From NCBI GenBank assembly GCA_041747555.1, contig JBGTEY010000013.1, forward strand, positions 80,814 through 144,813: DNA of 64,000 nucleotides. The letters run 5' to 3'. The notes beneath the pieces are model-generated. The model did no database searches and had not been told where the DNA came from. It saw nothing but the letters and a program-made list of their open reading frames with translations. This stretch comes from Patescibacteria group bacterium (GTDB lineage Bacteria; Patescibacteriota; Microgenomatia; UBA1400; PJMF01). This document shows, in pieces, positions 22,415 through 33,310 of the stretch (its first letter is position 1; every line of letters begins with the position of its first letter). The translations under genes and the position numbers were made by a program.

Positions 22415-23656
22415 ATGACTGCTCAATCAAATCGCACACAAGTTATTGGCCTCGGTTACATCGGGCTACCCACCGCACTCCTCTTGGCGGATACGGGACT
22501 TGAAGTAATTGGAGTTGATGTCGATCAGAATAAGATTAACGCCTTAAAAGCAAACAAATTATACTTCAATGAACCTGGACTAGAAAAGCTTTATACAAAG
22601 GCGCAAGATAAAAAGTTCTCTGCTGGGAGTACAGTGCAGCCCTCAGACACCTTTGTGATCGCCGTCCCCACACCTCAGAATGCGGGCACAGCAGACCTAA
22701 CATATGTCATAAGTGCTCTCAGATCGATTGAACCAGTTTTTCAACCAGGTAACTTGATTGTTATTGAATCCACCGTAGGTCCCAGAGATTGTGTCGATCA
22801 CATACTCCCACTGATAAAAAAATGGAACAAACCATTTTTATTCTCCCATTGTCCTGAACGAGCAATACCAGGGAATACACTCCACGAAATGGTCCATAAT
22901 GACCGCATAATCGGCGGAATTGATGAAGAGAGCAGGCAAGTTACCAAAGCTTTGTATGCATCATTTGTAAAAGGAAACATCTATCTCACCGACCCAACAA
23001 CCGCCGCCGCATGCAAAGTTATGGAAAACACCTATCGTAGTGTCAATATTGCACTCGCCAACGAATTCGCAAAATTAGCAGAAAGACTTGATTTTAATTG
23101 CTGGGAAGCGATCGAACTTGCCAATAAGCACCCAAGAGTTCAAATTCACAGTCCTGGGCCGGGAGTTGGTGGTCACTGTATTCCGATCGATCCATGGTTT
23201 TTTGTTCGGGAGCAGCGTTCTGAAGAAAGTCTAATACGTCACGCGCTAGAAATTAATACTAAAATGGCGAATCATGTTGTGGAGGCAGTTTCTGAAGCGA
23301 TCAAGTTGCTTGCTATTTCTAATCCAACAATCGGAATTCTAGGAGTTGCGTACAAAAAAAATGTTGACGATGCGCGCGAAACACCAGCCGCAAGGATTGC
23401 TGAGTTATTTTCTGAAAAATTCCAAGTACTCATGACCGATGAGCACGTCAAACAAGATGATCTTAAATCGCTCGAGCAAGTACTTTCAACGTGTAGCGTA
23501 ATTGTGCTGGTGACAGATCACGACCAATATGCTGAAATAAACTTTTCAGAGTATCCAAATATTAAACTCGTCTATGACACCAGAAACTGCATTTCAGCAA
23601 ACGCGTTTGACAACTCATCCGCAGTCCACTTGACCATCGGAAAGAAATCTTCATGA
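22415..23656 (+). CDS. wecC: UDP-N-acetyl-D-mannosamine dehydrogenase (UDP-glucose/GDP-mannose dehydrogenase family)
   Basis: 'QVIGLGYIGLPTALLLA', 'VIGGI', 'NKHPRV' and 'PGPGVGGHCIPIDPWF' match WecC closely, and the gene follows wecB immediately. Confidence 0.85.
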   Translation: MTAQSNRTQVIGLGYIGLPTALLLADTGLEVIGVDVDQNKINALKANKLYFNEPGLEKLYTKAQDKKFSAGSTVQPSDTFVIAVPTPQNAGTADLTYVISALRSIEPVFQPGNLIVIESTVGPRDCVDHILPLIKKWNKPFLFSHCPERAIPGNTLHEMVHNDRIIGGIDEESRQVTKALYASFVKGNIYLTDPTTAAACKVMENTYRSVNIALANEFAKLAERLDFNCWEAIELANKHPRVQIHSPGPGVGGHCIPIDPWFFVREQRSEESLIRHALEINTKMANHVVEAVSEAIKLLAISNPTIGILGVAYKKNVDDARETPAARIAELFSEKFQVLMTDEHVKQDDLKSLEQVLSTCSVIVLVTDHDQYAEINFSEYPNIKLVYDTRNCISANAFDNSSAVHLTIGKKSS

Positions 23657-24816
23657 ACATCCTCATCGTCTCAGATTATTTTCAACCAAAAATTGGGTAT
23701 GCAAAACCTCAAGTAGCTAAGGCATTGCAAACGGCGGGACACACAGTTGAAGTACTTACATCAGAACGCTACTTTCCATTTCATAATTACGAAAATAGCG
23801 TACAAAAAACAATTGGTAAAAGAATTCGCTCCGTTGGGACAAAGATGGAAAATGGAATCAAAGTAACGCGAAAAAAAACAATTTTTGAATACTTCACGAG
23901 AACCTATTTTGAAGACTTAGAGTCTGAATTAGTAAAACGAAAACCTGATTTGGTAATTGTGTTTGGCATGAGTTCTCCAAGCATGGTGCGGGTTGCACGA
24001 CTTAAGTATAAACATAAATTCAAGTTAACCGCTGTAGATAGTCATTTACCATCTGAACTGAGTCAAGGTAACGCATTTTTTAAGCAAATTTTTTACGGAG
24101 TCTTCAGATTACTATTTTCTAAAACTATCAGTCAATCACTCGACGTATGTGTAGCGCTACAAGACGATACAACCCAAGTTATTAGAGAGACGTTTGGTAT
24201 TAAAAAAAATGTTACCGTAGTTCCAAATGGTACAAATATCGAACAGTTTCAATACACCAAAACTGGTGCCGCCAAGGTTAAAAAGGACTTCCACATACCT
24301 AGAAACAAAACTATCATCATGTATTCAGGTAAAATAATCAAAGAAAAAGGAGTCCACTTACTTGCCGCGGCGTTTGCTAAGATAATAAGTAAAAATAAAA
24401 ACGTCCACTTACTCCTTGTTGGTGATGGCCCAAAAGAATACATCGATCAAGTTAAGAATACCCTAGAAAAGCATTCTGGTACGCTCACCATAACAGGCTT
24501 CCAACCTCACGAATCAATGCAAAATTTCTATTCAGCAGCTGATATTGCTGTATGGCCGCTCCAGGAATCTCTGGCTATGGTCGATGCTGCTGCGTGCTCT
24601 ATACCGTTCATTGCAAACGACACGCTTGGTGATAAAACAAGAATTAGCAACAATAATGCATTGTTATACAAAAAAGAAAATCTAAACGATTTAGTAGAAA
24701 AAATTACAAGATTAGTTACTGACCCAGAATTAAGGAAACAAATGGGAAAACGCGGCAGAACATTAGTAGAAAACACATTATCATGGAACGCATTATGCTT
24801 ACGATTTTTACCCTAA
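23653..24816 (+). CDS. Glycosyltransferase family 4 (candidate ManNAcA transferase by position; inference)
   Basis: GT4-like N-terminus 'MNILIVSDYFQPKIGY' and a C-terminal GT-B half; ATGA overlap with wecC. Confidence 0.65.
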   Translation: MNILIVSDYFQPKIGYAKPQVAKALQTAGHTVEVLTSERYFPFHNYENSVQKTIGKRIRSVGTKMENGIKVTRKKTIFEYFTRTYFEDLESELVKRKPDLVIVFGMSSPSMVRVARLKYKHKFKLTAVDSHLPSELSQGNAFFKQIFYGVFRLLFSKTISQSLDVCVALQDDTTQVIRETFGIKKNVTVVPNGTNIEQFQYTKTGAAKVKKDFHIPRNKTIIMYSGKIIKEKGVHLLAAAFAKIISKNKNVHLLLVGDGPKEYIDQVKNTLEKHSGTLTITGFQPHESMQNFYSAADIAVWPLQESLAMVDAAACSIPFIANDTLGDKTRISNNNALLYKKENLNDLVEKITRLVTDPELRKQMGKRGRTLVENTLSWNALCLRFLP

Positions 24817-31796: not shown

Positions 31797-33310
31797 TATT
31801 GATGTACCACAAAATTCACCCAGATACCCCCACCATGTGGTGGGTGAGTGTTGACGAATTTTATCGTCAGCTCTGTGAGCTGCGCGGCAAAGATGTGGTG
31901 TATTTAGATGACTACGATCCTCAGGATCCAAACCAGGTAGTCATTACATTCGACGGGGTATATCAAAATGTCGTTGACTTCGCGCTCCCACTCCTCAAAA
32001 AATTTGAGTATCCATTTGAATTATTTATTGCCGGGGATCATGTGGGGAAAGACAATGGCTTTGATTCAGTTGACAAGCGAACAGGCGAAGAAACTGGCGA
32101 GCCCCTTTCATATTTTGCTGACAGCGCAGGGCTCAAAAAATTGGTTGAAGGTGGGGGCCGCCTCCAATGGCATTCAAGATCTCATCCCAATTTAACAACA
32201 CTATCCAAATCGGAAATTCAAAAAGAGCTCAAGGTGCCACAAAAATTTAAAAAACTGGATCCAAATGGATTTACTTGGTTTGCATATCCGCATGGTGAGT
32301 TCAACGATGAGGTCATCAAAGAAACACGCGACAACTTCTCTGGTGGACTATCCGTAATTCAAGGTAATGACACTGATTCCTATGTTCTTAACCGACTCAC
32401 CGTGGTAAATGACACCATGCTTTCCGACACCACCATTGGTGTCGCGATTCCATGCTACAACTACGGTTCTTATCTGGTAGAAGCGATACAATCAGTGCTC
32501 AATCAGACCAGACCTGTGGATAAAATTCTAATAATCGATGATGGTTCCAGCGACAACACTCAAGAAATAGCCCGAGTATACGTAGAGCGTTACAAACATA
32601 TTGAGTTCATACGACACGAAAAGAATCGAGGCATAATTCCAACATTCAATCGTGCGATCAAAACATTAAACACCGACTATGTCTGCCTCCTAGGAGCCGA
32701 TAATCGATTCATGAGCAACTATATTGAGGAAGCAACCCGCGTACTTGATTCAGATGAGTCAGTTGGTATTGCGTATACCGATTTTGCACTTTTTGGACCG
32801 CTTGCAAGCAGCATGTTTAGTAGATTCCCTAAGGATCATCGAGGTGAAAGCATCGATCACAAAATATACCCCGTTCATTTTCCTGAATTTACGCCTGAAC
32901 GAGCTAAAAAAATTGAAAAAGCCAACTTTATTCACGGTTCATCGGTGTATAGAAAATCAATTTTCGATGCAGTTGGTGGATACAAGGAGTCAAAAACCGC
33001 TGAAGATCATGACCTTTTCACGAGGATTATAAAAACGGGCTGGGCAGCAGGTAAAGCCCAAAACACTTTTCTTGAATACCGCCAACACTCGCGAACGCAA
33101 GTTAATGCCCAACTCATTTCTCAAGATGAATTGTTATTCTACCGATCTCAAATTCCACCACTTAGGCAAGAACTCGAACAAATCAAGTCTTCAAAATTCT
33201 GGAAACTACTCAATCTCTATAAAAATCCAAAAACTGCATCCAAAATGTATGCCGCTCGGTTTATTACTAAGGTGTATCACAAAATTTTAAACAAGCTCAA
33301 GGTCGATTAA
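31793..33310 (+). CDS. Fusion protein: N-terminal polysaccharide deacetylase (CE4/NodB) plus C-terminal glycosyltransferase family 2
   Basis: The N-terminal half carries CE4 motifs 'ITFDGVY', 'WHSRSHPNL' and 'FAYPHGEF'. The C-terminal half carries GT2 'IGVAIPCYNYGSYLVEAI...ILIIDDGSSDNT' and 'LLGADNRF'. Confidence 0.7.
   Translation: MILMYHKIHPDTPTMWWVSVDEFYRQLCELRGKDVVYLDDYDPQDPNQVVITFDGVYQNVVDFALPLLKKFEYPFELFIAGDHVGKDNGFDSVDKRTGEETGEPLSYFADSAGLKKLVEGGGRLQWHSRSHPNLTTLSKSEIQKELKVPQKFKKLDPNGFTWFAYPHGEFNDEVIKETRDNFSGGLSVIQGNDTDSYVLNRLTVVNDTMLSDTTIGVAIPCYNYGSYLVEAIQSVLNQTRPVDKILIIDDGSSDNTQEIARVYVERYKHIEFIRHEKNRGIIPTFNRAIKTLNTDYVCLLGADNRFMSNYIEEATRVLDSDESVGIAYTDFALFGPLASSMFSRFPKDHRGESIDHKIYPVHFPEFTPERAKKIEKANFIHGSSVYRKSIFDAVGGYKESKTAEDHDLFTRIIKTGWAAGKAQNTFLEYRQHSRTQVNAQLISQDELLFYRSQIPPLRQELEQIKSSKFWKLLNLYKNPKTASKMYAARFITKVYHKILNKLKVD

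What the first reader, a model, noticed from the sequence alone, without database searches (positions are those of the whole stretch)
23653..33310. Methyltransferase-rich tailoring/export module: four SAM methyltransferases, a toroid protein, Wzx and Wzm/Wzt
Within about 10 kb there are a TylF/Methyltransf_24-type O-methyltransferase (24783), an FkbM-family MT (26603), two further class I MTs (27483, 31260) and an (alpha/alpha)-toroid repeat protein. They flank the only minus-strand export block (Wzx flippase, Wzt ATPase, Wzm permease) and sit directly after the HprK-like kinases and wecBC. In ABC-transporter-dependent glycan pathways, chain length is set by non-reducing-end caps (methyl, phosphate), and TylF/FkbM-type MTs are the usual sugar O-methylators. 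This block therefore looks like a capping and heavy O-methylation unit for a ManNAcA-containing polymer. Unusually, the Wzt here is NBD-only (245 aa) with no carbohydrate-binding module, and a Wzx flippase sits beside the ABC exporter, so two export routes are encoded together.
Basis: partly seen in the sequence, partly recalled or inferred. Interest (0 to 1): 0.7.

Follow-up and report, generated by a model that had tools for sequence, protein, structure and literature searches.

The report
Methylated surface-glycan gene module, CPR bacterium
This stretch really does encode four methyltransferases, a barrel-shaped enzyme of unknown function and two kinds of glycan exporter. It is best read as two separately conserved pieces of an ordinary-type cell-surface sugar pathway in an uncultivated Patescibacteria (CPR) bacterium, not as a proven chain-capping device.

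Summary

Comparison of about 90 related loci splits the block into two separable units:
- **Unit A:** WecB-(WecC)-GT4-(Methyltransf_24 MT)-toroid-FkbM/RfbT-like MT-class I MT. It occurs in eight loci, four of them with no ABC exporter within 10 kb.
- **Unit B:** Wzm/Wzt, a 692-aa GT-C membrane transferase, and an overlapping NodS-like MT / NodB-type deacetylase-GT2 pair. It can occur without Unit A.

A Wzx flippase travels with both units.

The NBD-only Wzt is normal, as in TagH, mycobacterial galactan Wzt and Klebsiella O2a. Its missing carbohydrate-binding module argues against cap-gated export. No methyltransferase has room for a coiled-coil ruler.

ABC exporter plus Wzx plus GT-C is the known architecture of Gram-positive wall polysaccharides. 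A methylated ManNAcA glycan encoded with wecBC, Wzx and three MTs is known from the Tannerella forsythia O-glycan.

The least understood part is the cytoplasmic (α/α)6 toroid. It belongs to an uncharacterised family found in Bacteria and Archaea (1,063 clusters at E≤1e-30), repeatedly fused to GT4, WecG/TagA, methyltransferase or formyltransferase-like domains.

The parts
19314..21337 (+). Context, just outside the finding: two tandem P-loop kinase-like ORFs (319 and 355 aa) of the PEPCK/HprK fold.
21334..23656 (+). Context: WecB (UDP-GlcNAc 2-epimerase, 21334-22404) and WecC (UDP-ManNAc dehydrogenase, 22415-23656), which supply UDP-ManNAc and UDP-ManNAcA.
   Evidence: Epimerase_2 at 346.8 bits. 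Three UDPG_MGDP_dh domains. WecB lies next to the toroid unit in all eight Unit A loci; no WecC is seen within 10 kb in L004, L009 and L016.
23653..24816 (+). GT4 glycosyltransferase (387 aa), the partner of the toroid protein.
   Evidence: Glycos_transf_1 and Glyco_transf_4. Only generic GT4 relatives in the PDB; ManT 7QSG is not among them. Fused in frame to the toroid in L016, as a 745-aa protein.
24783..25538 (+). Methyltransf_24/TylF-type SAM methyltransferase. It is the variable third MT of Unit A.
   Evidence: The only PDB sequence hit is 6g7d, E 1.7e-7. SAM motif VEIGSWLGKS. Present in the window and L001 only; a small FkbM-type MT replaces it in L007. The true start may lie a few codons downstream, because the exact 251-aa product is not on record.
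25531..26616 (+). Cytoplasmic (α/α)6 toroid protein (361 aa) from an uncharacterised family.
26603..27478 (+). FkbM-family, RfbT-like SAM methyltransferase (291 aa).
   Evidence: Methyltransf_21 at 93.8 bits; V_cholerae_RfbT at 32.1 against 27.9. TIGR01444 at 126.8 bits. Always immediately downstream of the toroid in CPR loci.
27483..28190 (+). Class I SAM methyltransferase (235 aa from the ATG at 27483).
   Evidence: Methyltransf_12/23/25/11. Always the second gene after the toroid, in 7 loci. Orthologs are 233-240 aa.
28193..29701 (-). Wzx-type MOP flippase (502 aa, 11 predicted membrane segments).
   Evidence: Polysacc_synt at 83.9 bits. Membrane segments. Its 3' end lies 2 nt from the stop of the class I MT, here and in L087. 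It is adjacent to that MT in L001 and L007 and lies in the Wzm-Wzt-GT-C-Wzx operon of L001.
29703..31230 (-). ABC-2 glycan exporter: Wzm permease (30451-31230) and NBD-only Wzt ATPase (29703-30440, 245 aa).
   Evidence: ABC2_membrane and ABC_tran. Best NCBIfam matches are TagH and galactan Wzt/Wzm, all below the curated cut-offs. Orthologs of 59-69% identity and 241-250 aa in L001, L007, L087 and L089.
31260..31796 (+). NodS-like class I SAM methyltransferase (178 aa).
   Evidence: Pfam NodS at 39.7 bits against 24. NCBIfam NodS E 7.5e-13, well below the equivalog cut-off. PDB NodS 3ofj E 7.9e-11. The start is fixed by the L087 ortholog. It overlaps the next gene in the window, L087 and L089.
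31793..33310 (+). Fusion of a NodB-type (CE4) polysaccharide deacetylase domain and a GT2 glycosyltransferase (505 aa).
   Evidence: Polysacc_deac_1 at residues 44-179 and Glycos_transf_2 at residues 217-394. Motif 1 is TFDG; motif 2 HSRSH is conserved.
33297..35375 (-). Probable GT-C-fold membrane glycosyltransferase (692 aa).
   Evidence: PMT_2 at E 7.5e-5, below the gathering cut-off. LA_3751/3752 family at E 8e-7. Eight predicted membrane segments. Adjacent to Wzm/Wzt in L001, L007 and L089, and close by in L087.
35429..40136 (+). Extension of Unit B: GT2 (507 aa), GT4 (512 aa) and an unassigned 542-aa protein.
   Evidence: The trio is conserved next to Wzm/Wzt/GT-C in L087 and L089.

Best explanation
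The interval is part of a glycan island of more than 60 kb in a Patescibacteria (Microgenomates-type) genome. It is a juxtaposition of two conserved, separable sub-modules.

**Unit A (about 16102-28190, one translationally coupled + strand operon)**
- It builds a ManNAc/ManNAcA-containing oligosaccharide or short glycan on a polyprenyl carrier. The enzymes are WecB, WecC, a GT2 and two GT4s.
- The product is tailored in the cytoplasm, where SAM is available. The tailoring enzymes are two constant methyltransferases (FkbM/RfbT-like and class I), a variable third one (Methyltransf_24 here) and an (α/α)6 toroid enzyme that works with the GT4.

**Unit B**
- Wzm plus a CBM-less Wzt, a GT-C membrane transferase, a NodS-like MT coupled to a deacetylase-GT2 fusion, and further GTs.
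- It makes and exports a second chain. The deacetylase/MT pair probably converts a HexNAc residue to an N-methyl-hexosamine.

**How the two connect**
- A Wzx flippase brings a lipid-linked unit to the outer face, and the GT-C joins the pieces or decorates the exported polymer. This is the arrangement seen in Gram-positive rhamnose wall polysaccharides (ABC exporter + Wzx-type GacK + GT-C GacL).
- On this reading methylation is tailoring of the glycan, quite possibly of terminal residues. It is not a demonstrated chain-length cap.

**Shown:** gene content, folds, synteny, separability of the units, fusions.
**Inferred:** substrates, which exporter carries which product, and the final acceptor (wall polymer or protein).
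For: **Lineage**
- Named toroid homologs are Woesebacteria, Daviesbacteria, Pacebacteria and Microgenomates.
- Synteny of more than 20 kb links the window to L001-L004, L007 and L087.

**Operon structure**
- Starts and stops overlap from 17115 to 27478.

**Unit A**
- WecB-GT4-toroid-FkbM-class I MT occurs in L001, L002/3, L004, L007, L009, L016 and L087.
- No ABC exporter is detected within 10 kb in L002-4, L009 and L016.
- The GT4 and the toroid are one polypeptide in L016.
- Other family members are fused to GT4 in both orders, to WecG/TagA, to Methyltransf_11 or to Formyl_trans_N.

**Unit B**
- Wzm-Wzt, the GT-C, the overlapping NodS-like MT/deacetylase-GT2 pair and GT2_507-GT4_512-unk542 recur in L087 and L089.
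- L089 has no Unit A within 10 kb.
- In L001, Wzm-Wzt-GT-C-Wzx is a single overlapping operon.

**Supporting details**
- The four MTs and the toroid have no signal peptide.
- The window also encodes PpgS/AglJ-like polyprenyl-phosphate sugar synthases and five PMT_2-type GT-C proteins.

**Precedents**
- Multi-component transmembrane glycosylation with a Wzx-type flippase and a GT-C on ABC-exported rhamnan (PMC8035078).
- The T. forsythia cluster (wzx, wecB, wecC, three MTs), whose product carries a 4-O-methylated terminal ManNAc-uronamide (PMC6120980).
Against: - No glycan chemistry exists for any of these organisms.
- The four Unit A loci that have an adjacent Wzx ortholog are the same four that have the ABC exporter nearby. 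Synteny therefore cannot say which exporter takes the methylated product.
- 'Absent' means absent within ±10 kb only.
- The GT-C assignment rests on sub-threshold profile hits plus topology.
- The deacetylase has TFDG instead of the canonical TFDD metal/base motif, so it may be inactive.
- The NodS resemblance is far below NCBIfam's equivalog cut-off (48.6 against 300).
- The toroid's activity is unknown, so its place in the scheme is a placeholder.
Confidence: 0.55

Rival explanations
1. The MTs, possibly with the upstream kinases, install methyl or methyl-phosphate caps on the non-reducing end of a ManNAcA polymer. This sets its chain length and licenses export by Wzm/Wzt.
For: - The FkbM protein passes the Pfam threshold for RfbT. 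From my own knowledge, RfbT methylates the terminal perosamine of the ABC-exported V. cholerae O1 antigen.
- NodS, which the fourth MT resembles, acts on a non-reducing terminal residue (own knowledge; resemblance).
- A PEPCK/HprK-fold kinase pair sits in the operon. In sister loci a small FkbM MT takes the corresponding position, which loosely recalls the phosphate-plus-methyl and methyl-only caps of E. coli O9a and O8.
- The ABC exporter abuts the MT genes in four loci.
Against: - Wzt is NBD-only in all five loci (241-250 aa).
- In every characterised terminated system a CBM on Wzt reads the cap, and the terminator carries a coiled-coil ruler. CBM-less transporters export uncapped chains (PMC11231755).
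- The four MTs are single-domain proteins of 178-291 aa with no room for a ruler.
- None of the four had a WbdD, TylF, MycE or MycF structure among its PDB sequence matches at E<=0.01.
- The MT triad occurs without any ABC exporter within 10 kb in four loci.
Confidence: 0.15
2. Unit A is a general protein O-glycosylation (S-layer or pilin) pathway of the Tannerella type. A methylated ManNAcA-containing oligosaccharide is flipped by Wzx and transferred to proteins by a Wzy_C/PglL-like or PMT-like transferase. The ABC exporter serves an unrelated polymer.
For: - The gene repertoire parallels the T. forsythia cluster: wzx, wecB, wecC, three MTs and several GTs (PMC6120980).
- Sister loci L002 and L004 add NeuB and CMP-sugar synthetase genes for a nonulosonic acid, as in Tannerella.
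- The window encodes two Wzy_C proteins (1,162 and 560 aa) and several PMT_2 proteins.
Against: - No oligosaccharyltransferase can be assigned, because Wzy_C domains also occur in polymerases and ligases.
- Wzx is co-operonic with Wzm/Wzt and the GT-C in the window and in L001, which argues for a functional link between the two routes.
- No target glycoprotein is known.
Confidence: 0.2
3. GT4, the MeT1-like MT, the (α/α)6 protein and a further MT are an analogue of the mycobacterial methylmannose-polysaccharide (MMP) cluster (ManT, MeT1, MmpH, pMeT3). They would make a cytoplasmic polymethylated polysaccharide, with the toroid acting as a recycling or priming hydrolase.
For: - The two clusters share four part types (PMC9883506).
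- The only PDB hit of the Methyltransf_24 protein is 6g7d, which I recall as MeT1.
Against: - MmpH ranks 14th at 10% identity, behind GH88 enzymes and 2-epimerases.
- ManT (7QSG) is not among the GT4's PDB matches at E<=1e-4.
- The Methyltransf_24 gene is missing from most sister loci.
- The unit is co-transcribed with WecB/WecC and abuts flippase and exporter genes.
Confidence: 0.04

Closest known systems
Gram-positive rhamnose-rich wall polysaccharide assembly (S. pyogenes Gac, L. lactis cwps): an ABC-exported backbone plus multi-component transmembrane glycosylation
   Same: - An ABC-2 exporter with an NBD-only ATPase.
- A Wzx-type flippase and a GT-C membrane transferase in one locus.
- Polyprenyl-phosphate sugar synthase GT2s nearby.
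- A monoderm host.
(PMC8035078)
   Different: - No rhamnose pathway was seen.
- ManNAc(A) supply instead.
- Three to four SAM methyltransferases and a toroid protein with no counterpart.
- The GT-C and transporter proteins are not orthologs of Gac or Rgp proteins, and all profile scores are below the curated cut-offs.
Tannerella forsythia general protein O-glycosylation cluster (wzx, pse, gtfSMILE, mtfJOY, asnB, wecC, wecB)
   Same: - wecB and wecC, several GTs, three SAM MTs and a Wzx in one polycistronic cluster.
- Its product carries a 4-O-methylated terminal ManNAc-uronamide (PMC6120980).
- Sister CPR loci add nonulosonic-acid genes.
   Different: - The MTs belong to different families.
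- No AsnB in the window.
- An ABC exporter and a GT-C are present here.
- The toroid protein is not described in that cluster, and protein targets are unknown.
E. coli O8/O9a and Klebsiella O3/O5/O12/O4/O7 terminator-coupled ABC pathways (WbdD/WbbB + Wzt-CBM)
   Same: Wzm/Wzt export, with methyltransferase and kinase genes in the same locus.
   Different: - No CBM on Wzt and no coiled-coil terminator.
- The kinases have a PEPCK/HprK fold, which as I recall is not the kinase fold of WbdD.
- The MTs are stand-alone and occur without the transporter in sister loci.
(PMC11231755)
Rhizobial NodB/NodS pair (de-N-acetylation followed by N-methylation of the terminal GlcN of Nod factors)
   Same: A NodS-like MT gene overlaps a gene with a NodB-homology (CE4) deacetylase domain, and the pairing is conserved in three loci.
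   Different: - The deacetylase is fused to a GT2.
- CE4 motif 1 is TFDG.
- The NodS score is far below the equivalog cut-off.
- No NodC-type chitin-oligosaccharide synthase partner was identified.
Mycobacterial MMP cluster (MeT1, MmpH, pMeT3, ManT)
   Same: A GT4, a Methyltransf_24-like MT, an (α/α)6 barrel protein and a second MT lie side by side (PMC9883506).
   Different: - The toroid and the GT4 are not specifically related to MmpH and ManT.
- The product here is probably exported, and the sugar supply is ManNAc(A), not mannose.

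Membership tests
Terminator-coupled ABC-transporter glycan pathway (WbdD/Wzt-CBM type) | Wzm/Wzt ABC-2 exporter | tested here: met
   ABC2_membrane at 72.9 bits and ABC_tran at 72.4 bits. Best NCBIfam matches are TagH and galactan Wzt/Wzm.
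Terminator-coupled ABC-transporter glycan pathway (WbdD/Wzt-CBM type) | C-terminal carbohydrate-binding module on Wzt that reads the cap | tested here: not met
   Wzt is 245 aa. It aligns at residues 42-241 to positions 44-242 of a 244-aa NBD-only profile. Orthologs are 241-250 aa.
Terminator-coupled ABC-transporter glycan pathway (WbdD/Wzt-CBM type) | Terminator enzyme carrying a coiled-coil molecular ruler | tested here: not met
   The four MTs are 178-291 aa single-domain proteins. The kinase model has no long coiled coil. No dedicated coiled-coil predictor was run.
Terminator-coupled ABC-transporter glycan pathway (WbdD/Wzt-CBM type) | Methyl or phosphate group on the non-reducing terminal sugar | not testable with these tools
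   Requires glycan chemistry.
CBM-less glycopolymer ABC exporters (TagGH, mycobacterial galactan Wzm/Wzt, Klebsiella O2a) | NBD-only ATPase plus an ABC-2 permease, with sequence membership in a curated equivalog | tested here: inconclusive
   The architecture is met. Scores of 195.6, 176.7 and 174.3 bits fall below the curated cut-offs of 538, 320 and 400.
Multi-component transmembrane glycosylation system | GT-C-fold multi-spanning transferase | tested here: inconclusive
   The 692-aa protein has 8 predicted membrane segments. PMT_2 scores 23.4 bits against a cut-off of 26.1. LA_3751/2 family at E 8e-7. No structure was predicted.
Multi-component transmembrane glycosylation system | Flippase (GtrA- or Wzx-type) and a polyprenyl-phosphate sugar synthase GT2 in the locus | tested here: met
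   Wzx at 28193-29701. PpgS/AglJ-like GT2s at 14379 and 15336, below equivalog cut-offs.
FkbM / RfbT methyltransferases | Profile score above the curated threshold | tested here: met
   PF05050 at 93.8 against 22.7; PF05575 at 32.1 against 27.9. TIGR01444 at 126.8 against 37.7.
TylF / Methyltransf_24 sugar O-methyltransferases | Profile score above the curated threshold | tested here: met
   PF13578 at 80 against 26.3. PF05711 at 25.2 against 23, which is marginal. Substrate not testable.
NodS N-methyltransferase | Equivalog-level match | tested here: not met
   NF041650 at 48.6 against 300. The Pfam NodS family threshold is passed (39.7 against 24), so the protein is NodS-like, not NodS.
Mycobacterial MMP cluster | MmpH-type hydrolase and ManT-type GT4 as specific relatives | tested here: not met
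GH88 / AGE 2-epimerase / PL10 / C5-epimerase (candidate families for the toroid) | Sequence-profile membership and catalytic residues | tested here: not met
   - Three of the six local Pfam hits are just above their gathering cut-offs: Pec_lyase 46.7 against 22, SQHop_cyclase_C 31.5 against 26.1, C5-epim_C 26.1 against 23.3. Each covers only part of its model: Pec_lyase and C5-epim_C a single 40-57-residue stretch within residues 104-161, SQHop_cyclase_C residues 9-197.
- GH88 is below its cut-off (17.2 against 26.6).
- A family profile searched against the PDB matches only hairpin repeats.

The most novel reading that the evidence does not exclude
The (α/α)6 toroid protein may be the first studied member of an uncharacterised family of cytoplasmic glycan-tailoring enzymes found in both Bacteria and Archaea.

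- **Size:** 1,063 50%-identity clusters at E<=1e-30.
- **Proposed role:** it acts on ManNAc/ManNAcA-containing lipid-linked intermediates in physical partnership with the glycosyltransferase. Fusions to GT4, WecG/TagA, methyltransferase and formyltransferase-like domains support this.
- **Proposed chemistry:** for example epimerisation or another proton-abstraction reaction at the glycan level. This would be new for the six-hairpin fold in biosynthesis.
- **In Microgenomates:** it forms a fixed toroid-FkbM-MT unit that produces a multiply methylated surface glycan of CPR cells.
Probability: 0.3. Interest if true: 0.6.

Novelty: new variant of a known kind. Interest (0 to 1): 0.4.

Why it matters
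**CPR surface chemistry**
- I know of no surface glycan of a Patescibacteria (CPR) bacterium that has been chemically described, and two literature searches found none.
- These small-genome, probably epibiotic cells devote more than 60 kb here to about 27 glycosyltransferases.
- A conserved, methyl-rich, ManNAc(A)-based unit gives a concrete target for heterologous expression and mass spectrometry.

**The ABC-pathway rule**
- The analysis shows that 'methyltransferase next to Wzm/Wzt' does not by itself mean chain capping. The CBM and the ruler are the discriminating features, and both are absent here.

**The toroid family**
- It is the most useful lead. It is widespread in glycan loci of Bacteria and Archaea, has no dedicated family model, and is repeatedly fused to glycosyltransferases.
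- Assigning its activity would annotate thousands of genes.

Tried and rejected
1. **Exact-sequence look-up of window proteins.** The lineage therefore rests on homolog names and synteny.
2. **Toroid as a uronate C5-epimerase or lyase.** This was suggested by faint C5-epim_C, Pec_lyase, Ulvan_lyase_N and GH88 hits. It is weakened because WecC is not seen within 10 kb in L004, L009 and L016, while WecB and GT4 are constant. The profile-level similarity is only to hairpin repeats.
3. **Toroid as an MmpH ortholog (MMP analogy).** Rejected as membership.
4. **Toroid as LanC, prenyltransferase or terpene cyclase.** No Cys-Cys-His or Asp-Cys-His zinc set and no DxDD motif on inspection of the sequence. 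Only one Cys is invariant.
5. **Promoter and terminator scan across the convergent and divergent junctions.** Counts are at or below shuffle expectation (37 against 45.2; 19 against 15.9), so it is uninformative.
6. **Literature searches.** Searches for PDB codes 6G7D/6G80/6H40 and a look-up of the MeT1 paper (PMC6338870) found nothing held. The identity of 6g7d as MeT1 therefore rests on my memory. Searches for CPR glycan literature found nothing specific.
7. **Metagenome scan with the GT-C protein.** It returned only three loci. These were useful but few.

Full report
**1. What is in the sequence**

On the + strand, with overlapping or nearly abutting stops and starts:
- WecB (21334), WecC (22415) and a GT4 (23653).
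- A Methyltransf_24/TylF-type MT (24783).
- A 361-aa protein with only weak six-hairpin/toroid hits (25531).
- An FkbM-family MT that also passes Pfam's V. cholerae RfbT threshold (26603).
- A class I MT (27483).

Converging on this with a 2-nt gap is a minus-strand operon: Wzm (31230-30451), Wzt (30440-29703) and Wzx (29701-28193). Then, 29 nt after the wzm start codon, come:
- A NodS-like class I MT (31260).
- An overlapping gene for a polysaccharide-deacetylase (CE4) plus GT2 fusion (31793).
- A minus-strand 692-aa multi-spanning protein with sub-threshold PMT_2 similarity (33297-35375).

The four MTs have intact SAM motif I. They and the toroid have no signal peptide, so they must act in the cytoplasm.

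The two 'HprK-like' ORFs upstream have no hit in the local Pfam scan. Their relatives carry precomputed PF27840, and one carries Hpr_kinase_C. The model of the first ORF (pLDDT 90.9) is a PEPCK/HprK-fold P-loop protein with an invariant Walker A. That description holds.

**2. Context and origin**

The whole 64-kb window is a glycan island. It holds:
- About 27 glycosyltransferase genes.
- Five PMT_2-like GT-C proteins.
- Two PpgS/AglJ-like polyprenyl-phosphate sugar synthases.
- Two Wzx and two Wzy_C proteins.
- A ManC-like enzyme and a small Bac_transf initiating transferase.

It is interrupted only by ruvAB.

Named homologs of the toroid protein at 50-61% identity come from Patescibacteria, Microgenomates, Woesebacteria, Daviesbacteria and Pacebacteria. 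Loci from such genomes are syntenic over more than 20 kb. The window therefore most likely comes from a Microgenomates-type CPR bacterium. From my own knowledge these are monoderm organisms, so 'O antigen' is not the right frame. Wall polymers or protein glycans are.

**3. The block is two units, not one**

I mapped window proteins onto 89 fetched loci.

- **Unit A.** WecB, optionally WecC, the 387-aa GT4, an optional third MT, the toroid, the FkbM MT and the class I MT occur in that order in L001, L002/L003, L004, L007, L009, L016 and L087.
  - The toroid-FkbM-MT triad is invariant (positions +1 and +2).
  - The Methyltransf_24 gene is found only in the window and L001. In L007 a small FkbM-type MT occupies its place. 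In L002 and L004 a small FkbM-type MT stands where the window has its two kinases.
  - L002-L004, L009 and L016 show no ABC exporter within 10 kb.
- **Unit B.** Wzm-Wzt, the 692-aa GT-C candidate, the overlapping NodS-like MT/deacetylase-GT2 pair and the GT2_507-GT4_512-unk542 trio recur in L087 and L089. L089 has no Unit A within 10 kb.
- **Wzx.** It is associated with both units.
  - It converges on the class I MT with the same 2-nt gap in the window and L087.
  - It follows that MT on the same strand in L007.
  - In L001 it is the last gene of a single overlapping Wzm-Wzt-GT-C-Wzx operon.

**4. Testing the capping idea**

- Characterised terminator-coupled ABC pathways have a carbohydrate-binding module on Wzt and a terminator with a coiled-coil ruler. 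The CBM-less Klebsiella O1/O2 transporter exports uncapped chains, and chain length is set by stoichiometry (PMC11231755).
- Here Wzt is 245 aa, and 241-250 aa in four orthologous loci. It aligns end to end with a 244-aa NBD-only galactan-Wzt profile and with TagH.
- The MTs are single-domain proteins of 178-291 aa.
- So the 'unusual' NBD-only Wzt is ordinary, and it counts against cap-gated export.

- Two of the MTs resemble enzymes that modify terminal residues (RfbT and NodS).
- A kinase pair is present.

Terminal methylation remains possible. It is simply not shown to regulate anything.

**5. The fourth methyltransferase**

- It scores 39.7 bits on Pfam NodS (cut-off 24), and NodS 3ofj is among its best solved relatives.
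- It is far below NCBIfam's NodS equivalog cut-off.
- Its stop overlaps the start of the deacetylase-GT2 gene in the window, L087 and L089.

By analogy with NodB/NodS, the GT2 domain would add a HexNAc, the CE4 domain would remove the acetyl group, and the MT would N-methylate the free amine. One caveat: CE4 motif 1 is TFDG rather than TFDD in all three orthologs, although the HSxxH motif is intact.

**6. The toroid protein**

- **Conservation.** Invariant polar residues sit on the first turn of each inner helix: E43/Y47, Q105, Y155/R158, H212/Y216, C270/Q276 and K347/D351. That is the usual position of a central-funnel active site, so I infer an enzyme rather than a scaffold.
- **Size and spread.** The family has 4,309 representatives at E<=1e-3 and 1,063 at E<=1e-30 among 1.84 billion. 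More than 577 genome loci span Woesebacteria, DPANN and Asgard archaea, Methanosarcinales, haloarchaea, Proteobacteria, Cyanobacteria and others.
- **Neighbours.** Across 72 loci the commonest neighbours are GT4 (38), WecB (17), a Formyl_trans_N protein (16, always adjacent and on the same strand), AsnB-like amidotransferase (15), AAC(3)-like N-acetyltransferase (14), a CapK/AMP-binding protein (10), WecC (8) and WecG/TagA (5).
- **Fusions**:
  - GT4-toroid: L016, P0134, P0162.
  - Toroid-GT4: P0200.
  - Toroid-LicD-GT4: P0272.
  - Toroid-WecG/TagA: P0177.
  - Trm112+Methyltransf_11-toroid: P0216.
  - Toroid-Formyl_trans_N: L013, P0193.

These point to a cytoplasmic tailoring step on an amino-sugar (ManNAc-type) glycan intermediate, carried out together with the transferase. 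The chemistry is unknown.

**7. Most likely mechanism, and rivals**

The best-supported reading (confidence about 0.55) is a two-track assembly.
- Unit A makes a methylated ManNAc(A)-containing lipid-linked unit.
- Unit B makes and exports a second chain through a CBM-less ABC transporter.
- Wzx and the GT-C connect or decorate them outside the membrane.

This is the known Gram-positive arrangement (PMC8035078). The methylated ManNAcA chemistry has a precedent in the T. forsythia O-glycan cluster (PMC6120980).

The rivals are:
- A Tannerella-like protein O-glycosylation destination for Unit A (0.2).
- An MMP-like cytoplasmic polymethylated polysaccharide (0.04). It was suggested by the GT4 + MeT1-like MT + (α/α)6 + MT parallel (PMC9883506) but is not borne out by specific homology.

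**8. Verdict**

- The annotation-level interpretation (sugar methyltransferases, two exporters) is right.
- The mechanistic claims (capping, unusual Wzt, one module) are not supported.
- As a system it is a new variant of known glycan-assembly kinds in an unexplored lineage.
- The uncharacterised toroid family and its fixed partnership with GT4 and two MTs is the part most worth an experiment.

Noticed in passing
window 19314-21337: Two tandem PEPCK/HprK-fold P-loop kinase-like genes sit inside the glycan operon. The family is very rare: 10 homologs among 5.8 billion proteins in a word-indexed search. At the corresponding position, L002 and L004 carry a small FkbM methyltransferase instead. 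This could reflect alternative phosphate and methyl modifications.
   Followed up: partly
L016 8810-11047; P0134, P0162, P0200, P0272, P0177, P0216, P0193; L013 9893-11881: The toroid domain occurs naturally fused to other domains: GT4 (both orders), LicD+GT4, WecG/TagA, Trm112+Methyltransf_11 and Formyl_trans_N.
   Followed up: yes
window 31793-33310 (also L087 7740-9281, L089 1101-2468): The CE4 deacetylase domain fused to the GT2 has TFDG in place of the canonical TFDD motif 1 in all three orthologs. The HSxxH motif is conserved. Activity is therefore uncertain.
   Followed up: partly
window 28190/28193 and 31230/31260: Spacing is extremely tight: 2 nt between converging stop codons (the same in L087) and 29 nt between diverging start codons. 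Promoters and terminators must lie inside neighbouring genes. Consensus scans were no better than shuffles.
   Followed up: partly
window 40176-43664 and 53652-55334: Two Wzy_C (O-antigen ligase/polymerase/PglL-type) membrane proteins, one unusually long at 1,162 aa. They could be polymerases, ligases or protein O-oligosaccharyltransferases.
   Followed up: no
window 50409-52000: ruvA and ruvB interrupt the otherwise continuous glycan island.
   Followed up: no
window 3659-12249, 38508-40136, 12219-13445: Several large ORFs (408-584 aa) have no family assignment or only sub-threshold ones. Some are probably further GT-C-like membrane proteins (PMT_2 or PTPS_related hits).
   Followed up: no
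L002/L003 13928-21101; L004 14782-21170: Sister CPR loci place NeuB, CMP-sugar synthetase, an aminotransferase and further MTs right after the toroid-FkbM-MT triad. This suggests a nonulosonic acid on the same glycan, as in Tannerella.
   Followed up: no
L005/L006 (Promethearchaeota); L061, L074 (haloarchaea); L014, L015 (Methanosarcinales): Toroid homologs at about 37-43% identity occur in archaeal glycan loci. In the two Promethearchaeota loci examined (L005/L006) they lie beside AsnB-like and AAC(3)-like genes. This implies transfer of the gene between Bacteria and Archaea.
   Followed up: partly
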